Source: a virus (Duplodnaviria > Caudoviricetes). Taken from it: a DNA stretch of 64,000 bases. Positions 3,779 to 10,674 of this stretch are shown here, piece by piece; within the stretch, counting starts at the first letter, position 1; every line of letters starts with the position of its first letter. Under the pieces are notes generated by a model. It was given only the letters and a program-made list of their open reading frames with translations, ran no database searches and was not told where the DNA came from. The DNA lies in the IMG/VR virus record IMGVR_UViG_3300017648_000198, positions 1,732-65,731 of that record; one strand, 5' to 3'. The position numbers and the translations under genes were made by a program.

Positions 3779-4022
3779 ACAGCAAGACAGCGTAACAACG
3801 GGTATCCATACGAGAGTATCAAGCACTATGCGAATCTCTAGCGCATGGCGAACGTATGAGAACGTTAATTTTCGAACGCAAGCGTGGGAGACGTTGTTAT
3901 GGAACGGGGATAGGGTAATCGCGGAATACGATACGCTTAAAGATGCGGATGATGTTATCGAGTTACACCAACGTATTTTATCGGAAAGGAGTTCGTATGA
4001 TGACGAAGAAAACGAAAATTAA
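3765..4022 (+). CDS. Hypothetical protein
   Basis: SD GGAGG; operon context. Confidence 0.6.
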   Translation: MAVYKQQDSVTTGIHTRVSSTMRISSAWRTYENVNFRTQAWETLLWNGDRVIAEYDTLKDADDVIELHQRILSERSSYDDEENEN

Positions 4023-4374
4023 CACGGCAGATTGGCGGGCGCTTCCGGTAGATAAATGGAACGTCCGCACATTCTCGCAAATGTTCATCGACTTAAACCG
4101 CGAGTATTACGGTATGGAATATGCACCGATGCGTAACTGGCGGTTTGAGCAAGGCGTACTAAAGCGCGCAATCGAAGCGCACGGCACGGCGTTATTAAAA
4201 GGGGCATTCGACGAGTGCTTCCGTACTTACCGCCCTACACCGCAATATCCTATATTGACCGCGGGCTTCGCGGTGGCTTATCGGATTAATACGATCATTC
4301 CGAGATTGCTTGTTGCAGGCGAAGCGAAAGCGGAGACTGTGGAAGAAACGAAATTGCCGGAGGTGGTGTGGTAG
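3997..4374 (+). CDS. Conserved-looking phage hypothetical protein
   Basis: SD AAAGGAG before ATG 3997 (the track ORF starts too far upstream). Confidence 0.65.
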   Translation: MMTKKTKINTADWRALPVDKWNVRTFSQMFIDLNREYYGMEYAPMRNWRFEQGVLKRAIEAHGTALLKGAFDECFRTYRPTPQYPILTAGFAVAYRINTIIPRLLVAGEAKAETVEETKLPEVVW

Positions 4375-4376
4375 CC

Positions 4377-4571
4377 ATGCGTCCGGAATCTGCGCAATTA
4401 TTCGTAAAAGGCGTGTTCGTTTCGTGTGAATGCGGACAGCATTACGTCGATTTTCTCGATCCGTGTTGGAACGACCGCAGCCTCGGTTTCTATTCGTGCA
4501 ATACATGTAAACGACCGCTCGTTGTCCGTGGCGATGACGGAGATTTCTACGAGGTCGGCGATAAGTTATAA
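4377..4571 (+). CDS. Small Cys-rich (zinc-ribbon) protein
   Basis: CECG...C...CNTC. Confidence 0.55.
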   Translation: MRPESAQLFVKGVFVSCECGQHYVDFLDPCWNDRSLGFYSCNTCKRPLVVRGDDGDFYEVGDKL

Positions 4572-4583
4572 GGAGGCGGGATT

Positions 4584-4781
4584 ATGCGATTATTATACGC
4601 AATACATGCGGTGGCGTACGGATACACCGTTAAGTCCTGCGAGGGCAATACGTATACAGAGGCGGAGCTGCAACCGCATCGAATCGGGAATCATGCGTGG
4701 AGTTTCGCGAGTGTGTTGACGGAAGTGGAGATAAAAGGACGATGGGAAATCGTAAGGGAGGACGATGTATGTACGGATTAA
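4584..4781 (+). CDS. Hypothetical protein
   Basis: SD AAGGAGG. Confidence 0.65.
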   Translation: MRLLYAIHAVAYGYTVKSCEGNTYTEAELQPHRIGNHAWSFASVLTEVEIKGRWEIVREDDVCTD

Positions 4782-5098
4782 TCCACTTACCGGACGGATC
4801 GGCGGAATATGTACCGAATGCCGACCTTTTCCAATCGTTAGTGCACGATAGATTAGGGCGAGACGCTGCGGATATTGTAGCGGAATTGATACGGCAGGTG
4901 GACGTTGCTACACACGTAGTCGAATCGGACTTATTGGCGTACGAATCCGAGAATGAGGCGTTGATAGGGGCGGTACTTAATGCGTCTGAAATGACGGAAA
5001 AACTACGGGAGGAGATAGCGAGTGCTCCCCGCCTTAATCGGAGCCAGCTTGCGGAGAGTTTGGCGGCGATTGAGCGGACGTTGGTTGCGGTGGTTTAG
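4769..5098 (+). CDS. Hypothetical protein
   Basis: SD GGGAGG before ATG 4769; helical C-terminus. Confidence 0.6.
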   Translation: MYGLIHLPDGSAEYVPNADLFQSLVHDRLGRDAADIVAELIRQVDVATHVVESDLLAYESENEALIGAVLNASEMTEKLREEIASAPRLNRSQLAESLAAIERTLVAVV

Positions 5099-5102
5099 AC
5101 GT

Positions 5103-5148
5103 AAAAACGCGAGGCTCGGCGGGCAGGCTTCGTCTCGCGTTTATTTTC
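5103..5148. terminator. Bidirectional intrinsic terminator
   Basis: Stem AAACGCGAG/CTCGCGTTT with A-tract and T-tract flanks between convergent genes. Confidence 0.75.
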
Positions 5149-5215
5149 GTTTTGTATATGCGGAGACACAGCGAGGGGCTGACTCTCCGCAGGCTATCTA
5201 AGTATAGGCGAATCC

Positions 5216-5293
5216 TTAGCCTAGGAAACACTTCGCCAACAGTAACAATAAAAGAGTTACCGCCCACTTGTCTAACTCGAAAGTTATACGCAT
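5216..5293 (-). CDS. 25-aa hydrophobic peptide, type I toxin-like (MRITFELDKWAVTLLLLLLAKCFLG)
   Basis: Translated by hand; SD AAAGGAGG 9 nt upstream; TATAAT at 5376-5371; below the ORF-track cut-off. Confidence 0.7.
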   Translation of the reverse strand: MRITFELDKWAVTLLLLLLAKCFLG

Positions 5294-5400
5294 GTACACT
5301 ACCTCCTTTCGGTTTTGTACTCCTTAGGAGCACTAGGCACATACTCCTAAAACCAAAAGTGGCAATTGTAATTATACTAAAAATTAACATATTTTAGTAG

Positions 5401-5414
5401 AGAACACCAGTTCT
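5401..5414. promoter_or_regulatory. Firmicute LexA (Cheo) box
   Basis: aGAACaccaGTTCt matches GAAC-N4-GTTC. Confidence 0.6.
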
Positions 5415-5421
5415 AATAACA

Positions 5422-5751
5422 TTAGTCTTCGTTAAGTTCTTGATTCTTTAGTTTTACCCTCTTTATCATCTGCATTCCTTTTTCAGTAGGAAATATCTCT
5501 ATTAAACCATCTTTGTTTCGCGCATAACTAGACATATCAGGTACGAACTCGACAACGTCTTCAATCCGGCAATCAAGATACTCACAAATAACTGCGAGGG
5601 TATCTAACGAAACAGATTTATCAGCATTAAGGCTTGCCGTGGTATTTCTTCCCAAGCCAGTAGCTCGACGTAAGTCGGCCATGTTCATTTTTCGATCCAC
5701 TAAAATGTGACGTAATCTGTTATAACTAGGTCTAAGTTTCAAACCGATCAT
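5422..5751 (-). CDS. Xre/Cro-C1-type HTH transcriptional regulator (probable repressor)
   Basis: YNRLRHILVDRKMNMADLRRATGLGRNT..L...SVSLDTLAVICEYLDCRIEDVVEF; divergent from the lytic operon. Confidence 0.85.
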   Translation of the reverse strand: MIGLKLRPSYNRLRHILVDRKMNMADLRRATGLGRNTTASLNADKSVSLDTLAVICEYLDCRIEDVVEFVPDMSSYARNKDGLIEIFPTEKGMQMIKRVKLKNQELNED

Positions 5752-5773
5752 TCCTTTGTTTGGGGATGTAATT

Positions 5774-5859
5774 ATTATATCATATGTACTAATATCGTAA
5801 ACATACCGAAATAAAATTTAGAAAAAGTGATTGACATTACAATCGGTAAGTTGTAATAT
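5774..5859. promoter_or_regulatory. Divergent promoter pair with operator
   Basis: Leftward TTTACG-16-TATAAT (5801-5774); rightward TTGACA-17-TAATAT (5831-5859) containing the inverted repeat ATTACAA-N8-TTGTAAT. Confidence 0.7.
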
Positions 5860-6108
5860 AAGGTCATAAGAAAGATTTACCAACAACGAAACACAACATA
5901 AACTCCTCGCGGCATCCACGGCAACCATCCCCGCCAGCCGCACGATATTCCCCGAAATAACTCTCCGCTAAAATGACGTAATATCAACGTGCCTCTCACG
6001 TAGAATTACGATCCGTCTGACGTACCCCTTACGGCAGGCAGCGCAGAGTTTTTCTGCGTTGGGCGTAAGTCTGTTGGGCGAAATTAACGATAAAGGAGGC
6101 GATAATCT

Positions 6109-6258
6109 ATGCAACAGATGCTAATCGGAAACTATACGTCAAATCCGCCGGAGCTGCTGCTCGAACTCGCGGCAATGGCGGAGCAGAACGGTAACGAACG
6201 GGCACGCCGCGTGTACATGGCGAATTACTTGCGATTAACTGACGAAAGGAGACGATAA
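6109..6258 (+). CDS. 49-aa hypothetical protein
   Basis: SD AAAGGAGG; MQQMLIGNYTSNPPELLLELAAMAEQ...; not in the ORF track. Confidence 0.6.
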   Translation: MQQMLIGNYTSNPPELLLELAAMAEQNGNERARRVYMANYLRLTDERRR

Positions 6259-6259
6259 T

Positions 6260-6691
6260 ATGAATGGAGCACGCGAGTTTTACCGAATTATTAAAGATGC
6301 GCATCTCGTAGGGATCGGCGGTTTAGCTAAAACGCAGCGCTGTACGCATGGCGGCGATTCCGTGGCGTATCAGTGTGATAACGTTATATACGTTACATCA
6401 ACGCATGCACGCGGCAAGACGTTTCGTATCTACTTAGTTGACGGCGAAAATACGTTAGAGGTCTACGGTGTAGTCCGAGGTCAGCGGGGTTGGACGGAAG
6501 AGTACGGCTGGCGGCATAAAGGTACATGGGTGAAACCGATACTGTCGTATTTACGCAGACTAGAACGGGAGTATGCCGCATGTGTCGAGCGGCTTGAAGA
6601 AGATAAGCGCAAGAAACAATCGGAAGCTAATCGGCAGAAACAGCAACAATTCGATAAGTTTAACGAAATGTTTCGGGAGGTGTCCGAGTGA
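6260..6691 (+). CDS. Hypothetical protein
   Basis: SD AAAGGAG; C-terminal coiled coil. Confidence 0.7.
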   Translation: MNGAREFYRIIKDAHLVGIGGLAKTQRCTHGGDSVAYQCDNVIYVTSTHARGKTFRIYLVDGENTLEVYGVVRGQRGWTEEYGWRHKGTWVKPILSYLRRLEREYAACVERLEEDKRKKQSEANRQKQQQFDKFNEMFREVSE

Positions 6692-7047
6692 ACCGTACGG
6701 AAATCGAAGCGAAGTGGAATACGTTGACGCCGCGCGAACGTGACGCATGGGTTGCGGAGGTTGTTACGAAATATATACCGCTAAATACAGCGCCAAATTC
6801 CGATGGAACGTTCGGATTTTTGCCGAATTACACAACGGACATTTCGTCGGCGTGGGCGGTACTCGAATCGAGCCGAGCGTGGGGCGGCATGGAAATCCAA
6901 TTTCACGCACACGGATATACGGTCGAAACGAGTATAACGAACGATGACGACACGGAGGCGCAGATAGTAACGAAGCCGACCGCACCGGAAGCGATATGTC
7001 TCGCGTCACTTATCGTGAAGATTACGGAAAAGGAGGCGACGGTATGA
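6688..7047 (+). CDS. Phage ABA-sandwich/BC1872-like protein
   Basis: R.RDAWVAE.V ... PNYTTDISSAW.VLE motif. Confidence 0.65.
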   Translation: MNRTEIEAKWNTLTPRERDAWVAEVVTKYIPLNTAPNSDGTFGFLPNYTTDISSAWAVLESSRAWGGMEIQFHAHGYTVETSITNDDDTEAQIVTKPTAPEAICLASLIVKITEKEATV

Positions 7048-9621: not shown

Positions 9622-10548
9622 ATGATTGACGTACGTACCGAACTCGAAGCGTTTGACTGGACGGCCGCGACGTGGACAAGCCGTAAGTTACTCGCGGCCT
9701 CACCGTTCCGCTACGATACGCATCCGTCATTCTTCGTTAACCTCGAAACAGGCGGCTGGCACGATAGCGGCGCGACCGATCCGGACTGGCAGAGCGGTAA
9801 CTTTACGAAGCTGCTCGCATACTTACGGCAGGAATCGTACGAGGAAACAGCGGAATATCTATCGGCTAAATACGGTAACGGTTACGTCTTAACTTACGAT
9901 GAAACCGGCCGCCCAACGTTTAAGCCGCCCGATCTGTTGAAGGCACGCGTTAAGCCTCGCCGTATTCCTTCGTACATACTCGATGATTATCGCTATCGGT
10001 CGGAATATCTCGGCAGGCGCGGCATAAGCGAAGAGATACAGCGGTTAATGAACGTCGGCTACGATATGACGCAGAAAGCCGTAACAATTCCGTGGTTCAA
10101 CGCGGATGGATCGCTCGGCAACGTCATGTATCGTAAAACGGCGGGCAAGACGTTTTGGTATCGTAGCGACAGCCGTCCGATTGGCGAAATGTTATACGGA
10201 ATTAACATAGTGTACAAGCATCGGATTAAATCGGTTGGTATCGTAGAGGCGCCGATTGACGCATTGACACTTATGTCGAATGGGATATGCGGAATTGCGA
10301 CGGGCGGCACGGCGATAACAGCGGACAAGCTGGCGTTGATATTACGGTCGCCTATCGAGGAATTGACGATATGGCGGGATCAAGATGGGGCTGGGCGGAT
10401 ATGGCAGCGGAAATTAGTCGAAGGGCTACGCGGTAAGGTTCGTTTGAAAATCGCGAAAATTCCGACGGAATATAAGGACGTTAACGAGGCGGCGTGCGCG
10501 GGTATCGATATAAGTAGCGTAAAAATTCGTAATATTACCAGTTTTTAA
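9622..10548 (+). CDS. DNA primase (TOPRIM)
   Basis: SPFR.D.HPSF N-terminus; IVEAPIDAL; WRDQDGAG; KDVNE. Confidence 0.88.
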   Translation: MIDVRTELEAFDWTAATWTSRKLLAASPFRYDTHPSFFVNLETGGWHDSGATDPDWQSGNFTKLLAYLRQESYEETAEYLSAKYGNGYVLTYDETGRPTFKPPDLLKARVKPRRIPSYILDDYRYRSEYLGRRGISEEIQRLMNVGYDMTQKAVTIPWFNADGSLGNVMYRKTAGKTFWYRSDSRPIGEMLYGINIVYKHRIKSVGIVEAPIDALTLMSNGICGIATGGTAITADKLALILRSPIEELTIWRDQDGAGRIWQRKLVEGLRGKVRLKIAKIPTEYKDVNEAACAGIDISSVKIRNITSF

Positions 10549-10674
10549 CGTACCTTTCGCATACTTCGATATAATGCGAGAGTCAACGCCGGAGTGTTCC
10601 GCGAGTTGACGCTGCGTCCAGTTACGTTTAACGAGTAGTTCCGGAATGAGGCATCGACGCGGTTTTAATCGCAT
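10426..10674 (-). CDS. Xre-family HTH protein overlapping the primase 3' end
   Basis: SD GGAGG; RCLIPELLVKRNWTQRQLAEHSGVDSRIISKY. Confidence 0.55.
   Translation of the reverse strand: MRLKPRRCLIPELLVKRNWTQRQLAEHSGVDSRIISKYAKGTLKTGNITNFYATYIDTRARRLVNVLIFRRNFRDFQTNLTA

What the first reader, a model, noticed from the sequence alone, without database searches (positions are those of the whole stretch)
5150..5376. Hidden 25-aa hydrophobic peptide with an RBS-sequestering leader (type I toxin-like)
Seen: the minus-strand ORF 5293-5216 encodes MRITFELDKWAVTLLLLLLAKCFLG behind AAAGGAGG. In the leader, CUUUUGGUUUU pairs over 11 bp with AAAACCGAAAG, burying the 5' edge of the SD around an inner UAGGAG/CUCCUA stem. 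The 3' UTR has a GCGGAGA/UCUCCGC stem and ends at a bidirectional terminator shared with the convergent early operon. Established: Firmicute type I toxins are short single-TM peptides on such self-inhibited mRNAs. Inference: a prophage-maintenance, superinfection-exclusion or abortive peptide. No antitoxin RNA could be located.
Basis: partly seen in the sequence, partly recalled or inferred. Interest (0 to 1): 0.72.

Follow-up and report, generated by a model that had tools for sequence, protein, structure and literature searches.

The report
Orphan micro-ORF cassette beside prophage repressor
Next to the repressor gene of a Paenibacillus-type prophage lies a 275-base insert, found in no related phage, with a promoter-like site, a folded leader over a very strong ribosome-binding site and a 25-codon reading frame; it looks like a small accessory gene, and the evidence does not show it to be a type I toxin.

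Summary
On the minus strand, after a Cro/CI-type HTH gene (5751-5422), come two palindromes, a perfect TATAAT and a stable leader hairpin (z -4.4). The hairpin pairs 6 of the 8 bases of AAAGGAGG. An ATG follows 8 nt later, then a 25-codon ORF, a 3' hairpin and a bidirectional terminator. This is the only AAGGAGG on the minus strand of the 64-kb window, so a real translation start is plausible.

The type I toxin reading fails the tests I could run:
- No antisense promoter was found.
- The peptide matched no toxin family in Pfam, NCBIfam, PADLOC or PHROGs.
- The peptide is polar at the N-end and hydrophobic at the C-end, the reverse of Firmicute type I toxins. Its hydrophobic stretch is only 16 residues and includes a lysine.
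- 8 of 41 genes of the same phage have an SD at least as occluded.

The 275-nt module (5147-5421) is missing from both syntenic relatives. It has no DNA or peptide homologue anywhere I could search, so frame conservation cannot be tested.

My odds are:
- orphan, moron-like micro-ORF cassette co-transcribed with the repressor, about 0.45;
- non-coding structured RNA, about 0.3;
- relic of a lost gene, about 0.2.

Interest is modest.

The parts
5422..5751 (-). Cro/CI-type HTH (Pfam HTH_26) gene, the candidate prophage repressor. It is 109 aa from ATG 5751, but the true start is more likely TTG 5742. No terminator separates it from the micro-ORF.
   Evidence: HTH_26, E 5e-19; own TG-extended promoter 5801-5774.
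5401..5414 (.). Palindrome AGAAC-N4-GTTCT, with the core of the Bacillales LexA (Cheo) box as I recall it. It starts 8 nt after the HTH gene's stop codon.
   Evidence: 3 GAAC-N4-GTTC sites in the window against 1.5 expected, so not significant as a count.
5375..5399 (.). Perfect palindrome TACTAAAA-N9-TTTTAGTA over the -35 region, the spacer and the first two bases of the -10. It is a candidate operator.
   Evidence: I14; one match in the window, 0 in shuffles; 3 of the 9 TACTAAWA half-sites lie in 5375-5794.
5371..5376 (-). TATAAT -10 box of a leftward promoter with a weak -35 (2 of 6). The inferred start is about 5366-5363.
5306..5359 (-). Leader hairpin: an outer stem of 10-11 bp around two small inner hairpins, pairing A58-G61 of the SD. 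An extra AUUGCC/GGUAGU stem (5366-5361 with 5303-5298) pairs G64 and G65.
   Evidence: z -4.4; hairpin alone -20.1 kcal/mol, 12.2 kcal/mol to open the RBS, stable from 20 to 60 C.
5302..5309 (-). Shine-Dalgarno AAAGGAGG, the only AAGGAGG on the minus strand of the window.
5216..5293 (-). 25-codon ORF plus stop, encoding MRITFELDKWAVTLLLLLLAKCFLG.
   Evidence: codon log-odds +3.2, best of six frames; Kyte-Doolittle 15-residue maximum 2.31, 19-residue maximum 1.59.
5159..5191 (-). G+C-rich 3' hairpin (UGCGGAGA...UCUCCGCA) with no U tract. Role unknown; it may stabilise the RNA or be a processing site.
   Evidence: (I2).
5105..5142 (.). Bidirectional intrinsic terminator shared with the convergent + strand operon that ends at 5098. 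It is older than the module: the relative G404 keeps it at the same junction.
   Evidence: I8; 92% identity over 39 nt..

Best explanation
The 275 nt between the repressor gene's stop (5422) and the conserved bidirectional terminator form a small accessory, moron-like cassette carried only by this prophage. It is transcribed leftward in two ways. Read-through from the repressor promoter is unavoidable, because the first terminator after the repressor gene is at 5142-5105. There may also be transcription from its own promoter, which has a perfect -10, a weak -35, and a perfect palindrome plus a Cheo-like box over and just upstream of it. The RNA carries a very strong SD and an ATG 8 nt later, which open a 25-codon frame for a peptide with a polar N-half and a hydrophobic C-end. 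A stable leader hairpin pairs 6 of the 8 SD bases and costs about 12 kcal/mol to open, so translation is damped rather than blocked. The product would be a low-abundance, membrane-associated micropeptide made in the lysogen and perhaps more on derepression. The anatomy, the RNA stability, the uniqueness of the SD and the absence from relatives are shown. Transcription, translation, membrane association and any effect on the cell are inferred.
For: The cassette is an insertion. In the closest relative by terminase (91%, G405) the homologues of the 133-aa gene and of the HTH gene converge with a 14-nt gap. In G404 (terminase 88%) the same terminator (92% over 39 nt) is followed directly by a different repressor gene. 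This is the only AAGGAGG on the minus strand in 64 kb, with ATG at the ideal 8 nt, whereas most of the 24 + strand copies precede genes. The codon log-odds of the frame is +3.2, the best of six frames; real genes give 8.1 +/- 4.8 and wrong frames -13.4 +/- 11. The leader fold has z -4.4. The TACTAAAA-N9-TTTTAGTA palindrome over the promoter is unique in the window. No terminator lies between the HTH gene and the ORF. G+C is 40.7% against 48.5% for the window. A tyrosine integrase lies just upstream of the window, so this is a temperate phage with a lysogeny module. Morons are defined as additions absent from related phages, with their own promoter and terminator (PMC3594210).
Against: There is no homologue of the DNA or the peptide, so purifying selection on the frame cannot be shown. 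Twenty-five open codons are not significant on their own. The -35 is poor. The hydrophobic stretch has only 16 residues and includes a lysine, which is marginal for a membrane helix. The terminator does not belong to the cassette. The cassette's G+C equals that of the adjacent repressor gene (38.5%), so composition does not mark it as a separate acquisition. A codon score from 25 codons is weak evidence.
Confidence: 0.45

Rival explanations
1. Non-coding structured RNA. The segment is the long 3' UTR of the repressor mRNA, or a 3'-UTR-derived or independently transcribed small RNA. Its hairpins would act in RNA stability, processing or base-pairing. The SD-like and anti-SD-like motifs (UAGGAG, CUCCUA, AAGGAG, AAAGGAGG, UCUCCGC) would be structural or ribosome-docking elements in the manner of the Bacillus STAB-SD stabiliser, recalled from Agaisse and Lereclus 1996; the name is cited in PMC3903433. 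The ORF would be incidental.
For: The whole 267-nt transcript is unusually stable (z -3.8). Four separate helices cover most of it, including a 9-bp hairpin inside the ORF. Several mutually complementary SD and anti-SD motifs are present. The SD is mostly paired. The peptide is very short, with a marginal hydrophobic segment.
Against: No Rfam family matched even at E up to 10. A STAB-SD-type stabiliser protects a downstream coding region, and nothing but the 25-codon ORF lies downstream. The 10-nt complement to the 16S tail with an ATG at exactly 8 nt, in an open frame with the best codon score, is more than a structural role requires. No homologues exist, so covariation cannot be tested.
Confidence: 0.3
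2. Relic. The SD, the ATG and the 25 codons are the surviving 5' end, a signal-peptide-like n-region and h-region, of a longer accessory gene such as a secreted or lipoprotein exclusion factor. Such genes often sit in Gram-positive lysogeny modules (my recollection). The rest was lost by deletion up to the terminator, so the present product would have no function.
For: The peptide has the layout of a signal peptide: a short charged N-end, a Leu-rich core, then A-K-C-F-L-G, which is near to but not a lipobox. Only 70 nt separate the stop from the terminator. The junction is mosaic among relatives, with three different arrangements in three phages.
Against: No longer homologue was found whose N-terminus matches. 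The six-frame and ORF-based searches were empty, although the 25-aa peptide itself was below the 40-aa minimum of that protein-database search. The elaborate leader, the palindromic operator and the 3' hairpin are intact, which is not expected of decaying DNA. The acidic residues E6 and D8 are unusual in a signal peptide's n-region.
Confidence: 0.17
3. Type I toxin-antitoxin module. The peptide is a membrane-damaging toxin kept silent by its self-inhibited mRNA and by an antisense RNA not yet seen. That RNA might be the 3' end of the convergent + strand transcript, which overlaps across the shared terminator, or read-through of it. This is a subset of the coding reading.
For: The peptide is small and hydrophobic and the SD is buried, as in txpA, bsrE and bsrG (PMC6562991). 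The location is a prophage, like bsrG and yonT in SPbeta and the C. difficile phiCD630 toxins (PMC6562991, PMC7699646). Convergent transcripts share about 40 nt at their 3' ends. A Cheo-like box recalls the SOS-controlled tisB, dinQ and symE (PMC6562991).
Against: No sigma-A-like promoter for an antisense RNA lies on the + strand between 5050 and 5345. A 3' overlap across a bidirectional terminator is generic and not specific to toxin-antitoxin pairs. The peptide's polarity is the reverse of the hydrophobic N-terminus and charged tail of Firmicute toxins (PMC7699646). The hydrophobic stretch is 16 residues. No toxin family matched. The gene must be co-transcribed with the repressor in every lysogen. 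SD occlusion is ordinary for this phage. The LexA-box count is at chance level.
Confidence: 0.12

Closest known systems
Phage morons (accessory transcription units such as HK97 gene 15; PMC3594210)
   Same: It is extra DNA missing from related phages at the same junction. It sits between two conserved genes, has a promoter-like site and ends at a terminator. Its G+C is lower than the genome average, and it is expected to be expressed from the repressed prophage.
   Different: It is far smaller than typical morons: 275 nt and 25 codons. The terminator is inherited rather than brought in. Its G+C matches the neighbouring repressor gene. Its own promoter is weak and overlaid by a palindrome, so expression may depend mainly on read-through from the repressor promoter.
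Prophage-borne type I toxins of Firmicutes (bsrG/SR4, yonT/SR6, txpA/RatA, bsrE/SR5 in B. subtilis; CD0977.1/RCd11 and relatives in C. difficile phiCD630; PMC6562991, PMC7699646)
   Same: A short hydrophobic peptide gene in a prophage, a strong SD 7-8 nt before the ATG, and an SD base-paired within the mRNA's own structure.
   Different: No antisense RNA gene is detectable and there is no sequence similarity. The peptide is shorter (25 aa against 29-59). It has a polar N-end and a hydrophobic C-end, where those toxins have a hydrophobic N-terminus and a charged tail. It lies in an operon position behind the repressor gene.
E. coli SOS-induced small membrane toxins (tisB, dinQ; PMC6562991) and the short toxins ShoB and Ibs (recalled)
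   Same: The size class is 19-29 aa. A GAAC-N4-GTTC palindrome lies upstream of the promoter. ShoB, as I recall, also has a polar N-half and a hydrophobic C-half.
   Different: The phylum is different and there is no homology. The LexA-type box here is statistically unremarkable and lies at about -50 to -37, not over the promoter core. No Sok-, IstR- or OhsC-like partner was found.

Membership tests
Type I toxin-antitoxin system | Cis-encoded antisense RNA antitoxin with its own promoter, overlapping the toxin mRNA | tested here: not met
   No sigma-A-like promoter on the + strand between 5050 and 5345, even at relaxed thresholds. The only + strand candidates (5346-5395, 5440-5469) fire away from the ORF. 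The only overlap with another transcript is the generic one across the shared terminator. Promoter scans are weak evidence, so strand-specific RNA-seq is needed for certainty.
Type I toxin-antitoxin system | Toxin is a small (<60 aa) hydrophobic peptide with an alpha-helical transmembrane domain (PMC6562991) | tested here: inconclusive
   The peptide has 25 aa. The hydrophobic run W10-G25 has 16 residues and includes K21. The Kyte-Doolittle mean is 2.31 over 15 residues but only 1.59 over 19. It is too short for the structure predictor and the language-model atlas (30-aa minimum).
Type I toxin-antitoxin system | Hydrophobic N-terminal region followed by a positively charged tail (called characteristic in PMC7699646) | tested here: not met
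   Sequence read directly. The N-half carries R2, E6, D8 and K9 (net 0). The hydrophobic part is C-terminal and the peptide ends ...AKCFLG with no charged tail.
Type I toxin-antitoxin system | Ribosome-binding site sequestered in the toxin mRNA's own structure (txpA, bsrE, bsrG: 4-5 G-C pairs; PMC6562991) | tested here: met
   Six of the 8 SD bases are paired with probability about 0.8-0.9, and forcing the RBS open costs 12.2 kcal/mol. However, 8 of 41 genes of the same phage have an SD at least as occluded, so the feature is not discriminating here.
Type I toxin-antitoxin system | Sequence membership in a described toxin family (Fst/Ldr, TxpA/BsrG, BsrE, YonT, SprA1, SprG, Hok, TisB, and others) | tested here: not met
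   No hit at E up to 10 in Pfam, NCBIfam or PADLOC, and none at the E 0.01 limit used for PHROGs. Profile searches have little power on 25 residues.
Type I toxin-antitoxin system | Growth arrest or killing on overexpression, relieved by the antitoxin RNA | not testable with these tools
   Needs the bench.
Phage moron | Present in one phage, absent at the same junction in related phages | tested here: met
   G405 has a 14-nt gap between the convergent homologues. G404 has the terminator followed directly by the repressor gene. More distant HTH_26 loci (L003, L004, L009-L011) show the convergent gene abutting or overlapping the HTH gene; L024 does not, and it also has no match to the module.
Phage moron | Own promoter and own terminator | tested here: inconclusive
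   The -10 is perfect and the -35 matches 2 of 6. A palindrome lies over the promoter. The terminator is shared and predates the insert.
Phage moron | Base composition different from the surrounding genes | tested here: inconclusive
   G+C is 40.7% against 48.5% for the window and 52% for the gene on the left, but 38.5% for the repressor gene on the right.
SOS (LexA) regulon member | Cheo box (CGAAC-N4-GTTCG type) at the promoter | tested here: inconclusive
   AGAAC-ACCA-GTTCT lies at 5401-5414, about -50 to -37 from the inferred start. There are 3 core matches in the window against 1.5 expected, and 16 of 100 shuffles do as well.

The most novel reading that the evidence does not exclude
The cassette would be a new kind of repressor-linked micro-gene: a 25-aa peptide anchored by its C-end, transcribed with the prophage repressor, held nearly silent by its own leader, and switched on when a protein leaves the TACTAAAA-N9-TTTTAGTA operator or the Cheo-like box. 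It would then act on the membrane as an antitoxin-less, self-locked toxin, or as an exclusion or induction-timing factor. It would have no relative among described toxin or exclusion families.
Probability: 0.1. Interest if true: 0.55.

Novelty: new member of a known kind. Interest (0 to 1): 0.3.

Why it matters
If the peptide is made, it adds one more example of the very small membrane peptides that prophages carry and gene callers miss. It would sit in an unusual place, as the distal cistron of the repressor transcript, under both an operator-like palindrome and a translational brake. That could link lysogeny control to a membrane effect such as exclusion, abortive killing or timing of induction. 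As it stands it is a single orphan locus with no comparative support. Its main value is as a well-delimited 275-nt candidate for a simple deletion, tagging and expression experiment. It also shows that a hydrophobic micro-ORF with a buried SD is not enough to call a type I toxin.

Tried and rejected
**Known RNA families and tRNAs.**
- Rfam at E up to 10 over 4000-7000 gave only noise.
- No tRNA or tmRNA was found.

**DNA and peptide homologue searches.**
- INPHARED phages by blastn and by tblastn of the peptide: empty.
- PLSDB plasmids: empty.
- IMG/VR with an exact 25-mer: empty.
- IMG/VR with a degenerate TFELDKW pattern: four hits, all inside unrelated frames.
- 401 Paenibacillaceae, 401 Bacilli and 74 congeneric genomes: only 19-41-nt chance-level hits.
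- 40 records of the same phage family: only the terminator matched.
- About 100 loci carrying relatives of the HTH gene, from viral, genome and metagenome collections: empty.

**Protein-database route.**
- The 25-aa peptide is below the 40-aa minimum.
- The overlapping 118-aa frame, used as a proxy for miscalled ORFs, found nothing.

**Readings rejected.**
- A Streptococcus match, KWAMTELMLLL downstream of HTH homologues, lies out of frame inside an 837-aa methyltransferase gene, so it is chance.
- RNA thermometer: SD pairing is unchanged from 20 to 60 C.
- Leucine-type attenuator, prompted by six consecutive Leu codons: there is nothing downstream to regulate, and Firmicutes use T-boxes (my knowledge).
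- Arbitrium-type AimP: there is no N-terminal signal sequence and no AimR-like neighbour.
- Lipoprotein signal: A-K-C is not a lipobox.
- The + strand 81-aa and minus strand 118-aa ORFs across the region have no SD and poor codon scores.

Full report
**Context.** The window is nearly all of a 65.7-kb IMG/VR provirus record. A tyrosine integrase lies just upstream of the window. Almost every gene is on the + strand.

One gene is reversed, at 5751-5422. It encodes a 109-aa Cro/CI-type HTH protein (Pfam HTH_26, E 5e-19). It has a TG-extended promoter, TTTACG-16-TATAAT (5801-5774), back to back with a rightward TTGACA-17-TAATAT promoter (5831-5859). This is the lysogeny switch.

Relatives of the HTH protein and of the terminase are proviruses of Paenibacillus, Brevibacillus and similar Bacillales. 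The + strand operon on the left ends at 5098.

**The observation.**
- A palindrome AGAAC-N4-GTTCT (5414-5401) starts 8 nt after the HTH gene's stop.
- A second, perfect palindrome TACTAAAA-N9-TTTTAGTA (5399-5375) follows. It is unique in the window and absent from shuffles. It runs into a perfect TATAAT (5376-5371), whose -35 matches only 2 of 6.
- In the leader, CUUUUGGUUUU (5359-5349) pairs with AAAACCGAAAG (5316-5306). Two alternative inner foldings of UAGGAG, CUCCUA and AAGGAG fit inside this stem.
- A further stem, AUUGCC/GGUAGU, closes over the last two G's of the SD.
- The 82-nt leader folds at -29.4 kcal/mol, against -17.5 +/- 2.7 for shuffles (z -4.4). The full transcript has z -3.8.
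- The SD AAAGGAGG (5309-5302) is followed after 8 nt by ATG 5293 and 25 codons to TAA 5218-5216.
- A G+C-rich hairpin (5191-5159) and a terminator with perfect 9-bp arms and T runs on both strands (5142-5105) finish the unit.

**Is the start site more than chance?** AAGGAGG occurs 24 times on the + strand, mostly in front of genes, and once on the minus strand, here.
- The ORF frame has the best codon log-odds of the six frames: +3.2. Real genes give 8.1 +/- 4.8 and wrong frames -13.4 +/- 11. With 25 codons this is only mildly supportive.
- The length of the open frame carries no weight by itself.

**How strong is the RBS-sequestering claim?** Six of the 8 SD bases are paired with high probability whatever 5' end is assumed. 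That includes read-through transcripts from the repressor promoter.
- Forcing the RBS open costs 12.2 kcal/mol, and the pairing does not melt between 20 and 60 C.
- Measured the same way, however, 8 of 41 genes of this phage have an SD at least as occluded.
- So the brake is real but not exceptional. It is opposed by a very strong SD, 10 nt complementary to the 16S tail as I recall that sequence.

**Comparative evidence.** This is the decisive part, and it is negative in an informative way.
- The closest relative by terminase (91%, G405, IMGVR_UViG_3300017565_000004) has homologues of the 133-aa gene, the HTH gene and the 49-aa and 143-aa early genes in the same order. Its two convergent genes are only 14 nt apart.
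- The next relative (88%, G404) keeps the same terminator (92% over 39 nt). A different, 143-aa repressor gene follows it directly.
- In more distant HTH_26 loci (L003, L004, L009, L010, L011) the convergent gene abuts or overlaps the HTH gene. L024 has no convergent gene abutting it, and nothing there matches the module.
- So 5147-5421 is an insertion specific to this phage, between the repressor gene and an older terminator.
- Nothing similar to its DNA or its peptide was found in any collection I could search. The short hits were chance. One is a 26-of-27 match to the RBS and first four codons of a gene whose product I read as FliD-like from its N-terminus.

**Type I toxin membership.** Reviews define these toxins as hydrophobic peptides under 60 aa with a transmembrane helix, controlled by an antisense RNA. 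In B. subtilis that RNA pairs at the 3' end, and the SD is buried in the toxin mRNA (PMC6562991). A hydrophobic N-terminus and a positively charged tail are called characteristic (PMC7699646). Here:
- The buried SD is present.
- No promoter for an antisense RNA is found.
- The peptide has the reverse polarity and only a 16-residue hydrophobic run with a lysine in it.
- No toxin family matched.
- The gene is necessarily co-transcribed with the repressor in every lysogen.

I therefore do not file it as a type I toxin. It may still work like one, but I put that at about 0.12.

**Best reading.** I read this as an orphan, moron-like micro-ORF cassette (PMC3594210 for the concept). It is expressed at a low level behind the repressor gene and perhaps from its own operator-covered promoter. 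Its product would be a small membrane-associated peptide of unknown effect (confidence 0.45). The rivals are:
- a non-coding structured 3' UTR or small RNA whose SD-like motifs are structural (0.3);
- the signal-peptide-like stump of a lost accessory gene (0.17).

The Cheo-like box is not statistically supported: 3 sites against 1.5 expected. The TACTAAWA half-sites, in contrast, cluster in the switch region, with 3 of 9 within 420 nt. That hints that the phage repressor or a host factor binds at the cassette's promoter.

**Verdict.** The cassette is a clean, testable candidate, but a single orphan locus. Interest is 0.3.

Noticed in passing
window 5742-5751: The HTH gene's annotated ATG (5751) has AAAGGA directly against it. 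TTG at 5742 has proper SD spacing and gives an N-terminus (MKLRP...) that matches the homologues (MRLKPSYKPL and similar), so the true start is probably 5742.
   Followed up: partly
window 5836-5857: Palindrome ATTACAA-N8-TTGTAAT lies between the -35 and -10 of the rightward early promoter and is a likely repressor operator. A third ATTACAA copy sits at 5366-5372, right after the TATAAT of the micro-ORF promoter.
   Followed up: partly
window 6109-6258: A 49-aa ORF with a perfect AAAGGAGG is the first gene of the rightward operon. It is conserved in relatives (93% in G405, 67% in G404), so it is a real small gene that ORF length cut-offs could miss.
   Followed up: partly
window 10426-10674 (minus strand): This is the only other minus-strand ORF in the window led by GGAGG with an ATG at 7 nt (82 aa), a second reversed gene in an otherwise one-directional genome.
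   Followed up: no
L177 1189-1455 (G404): At the equivalent junction the relative G404 carries an 88-aa, probably two-pass membrane protein on the + strand just before the conserved terminator. The repressor-proximal junction seems to be a hot spot for small accessory genes.
   Followed up: no
L190 1501-1526: A 26-of-27-nt match to the micro-ORF's SD, spacer and first four codons (MRIT) lies at the start of a gene in a 2.6-Mb Bacilli genome whose product I read as FliD-like from its N-terminus. About 0.2 such hits are expected over all genomes searched, so it is probably chance.
   Followed up: partly
L053 1501-1526; L191 1508-1532: Near-copies of the TACTAAAA-N9/10-TTTTAGTA palindrome occur in intergenic DNA of two unrelated Bacilli genomes. 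This could be a shared binding site for a host factor, or just AT-rich coincidence.
   Followed up: no
window 5401-5408 (minus strand): The right arm of the Cheo-like palindrome reads GTTCTCT, which also fits the SinR operator half-site GTTCTYT as I recall it. The box may belong to an XRE/SinR-type protein and not to LexA.
   Followed up: no
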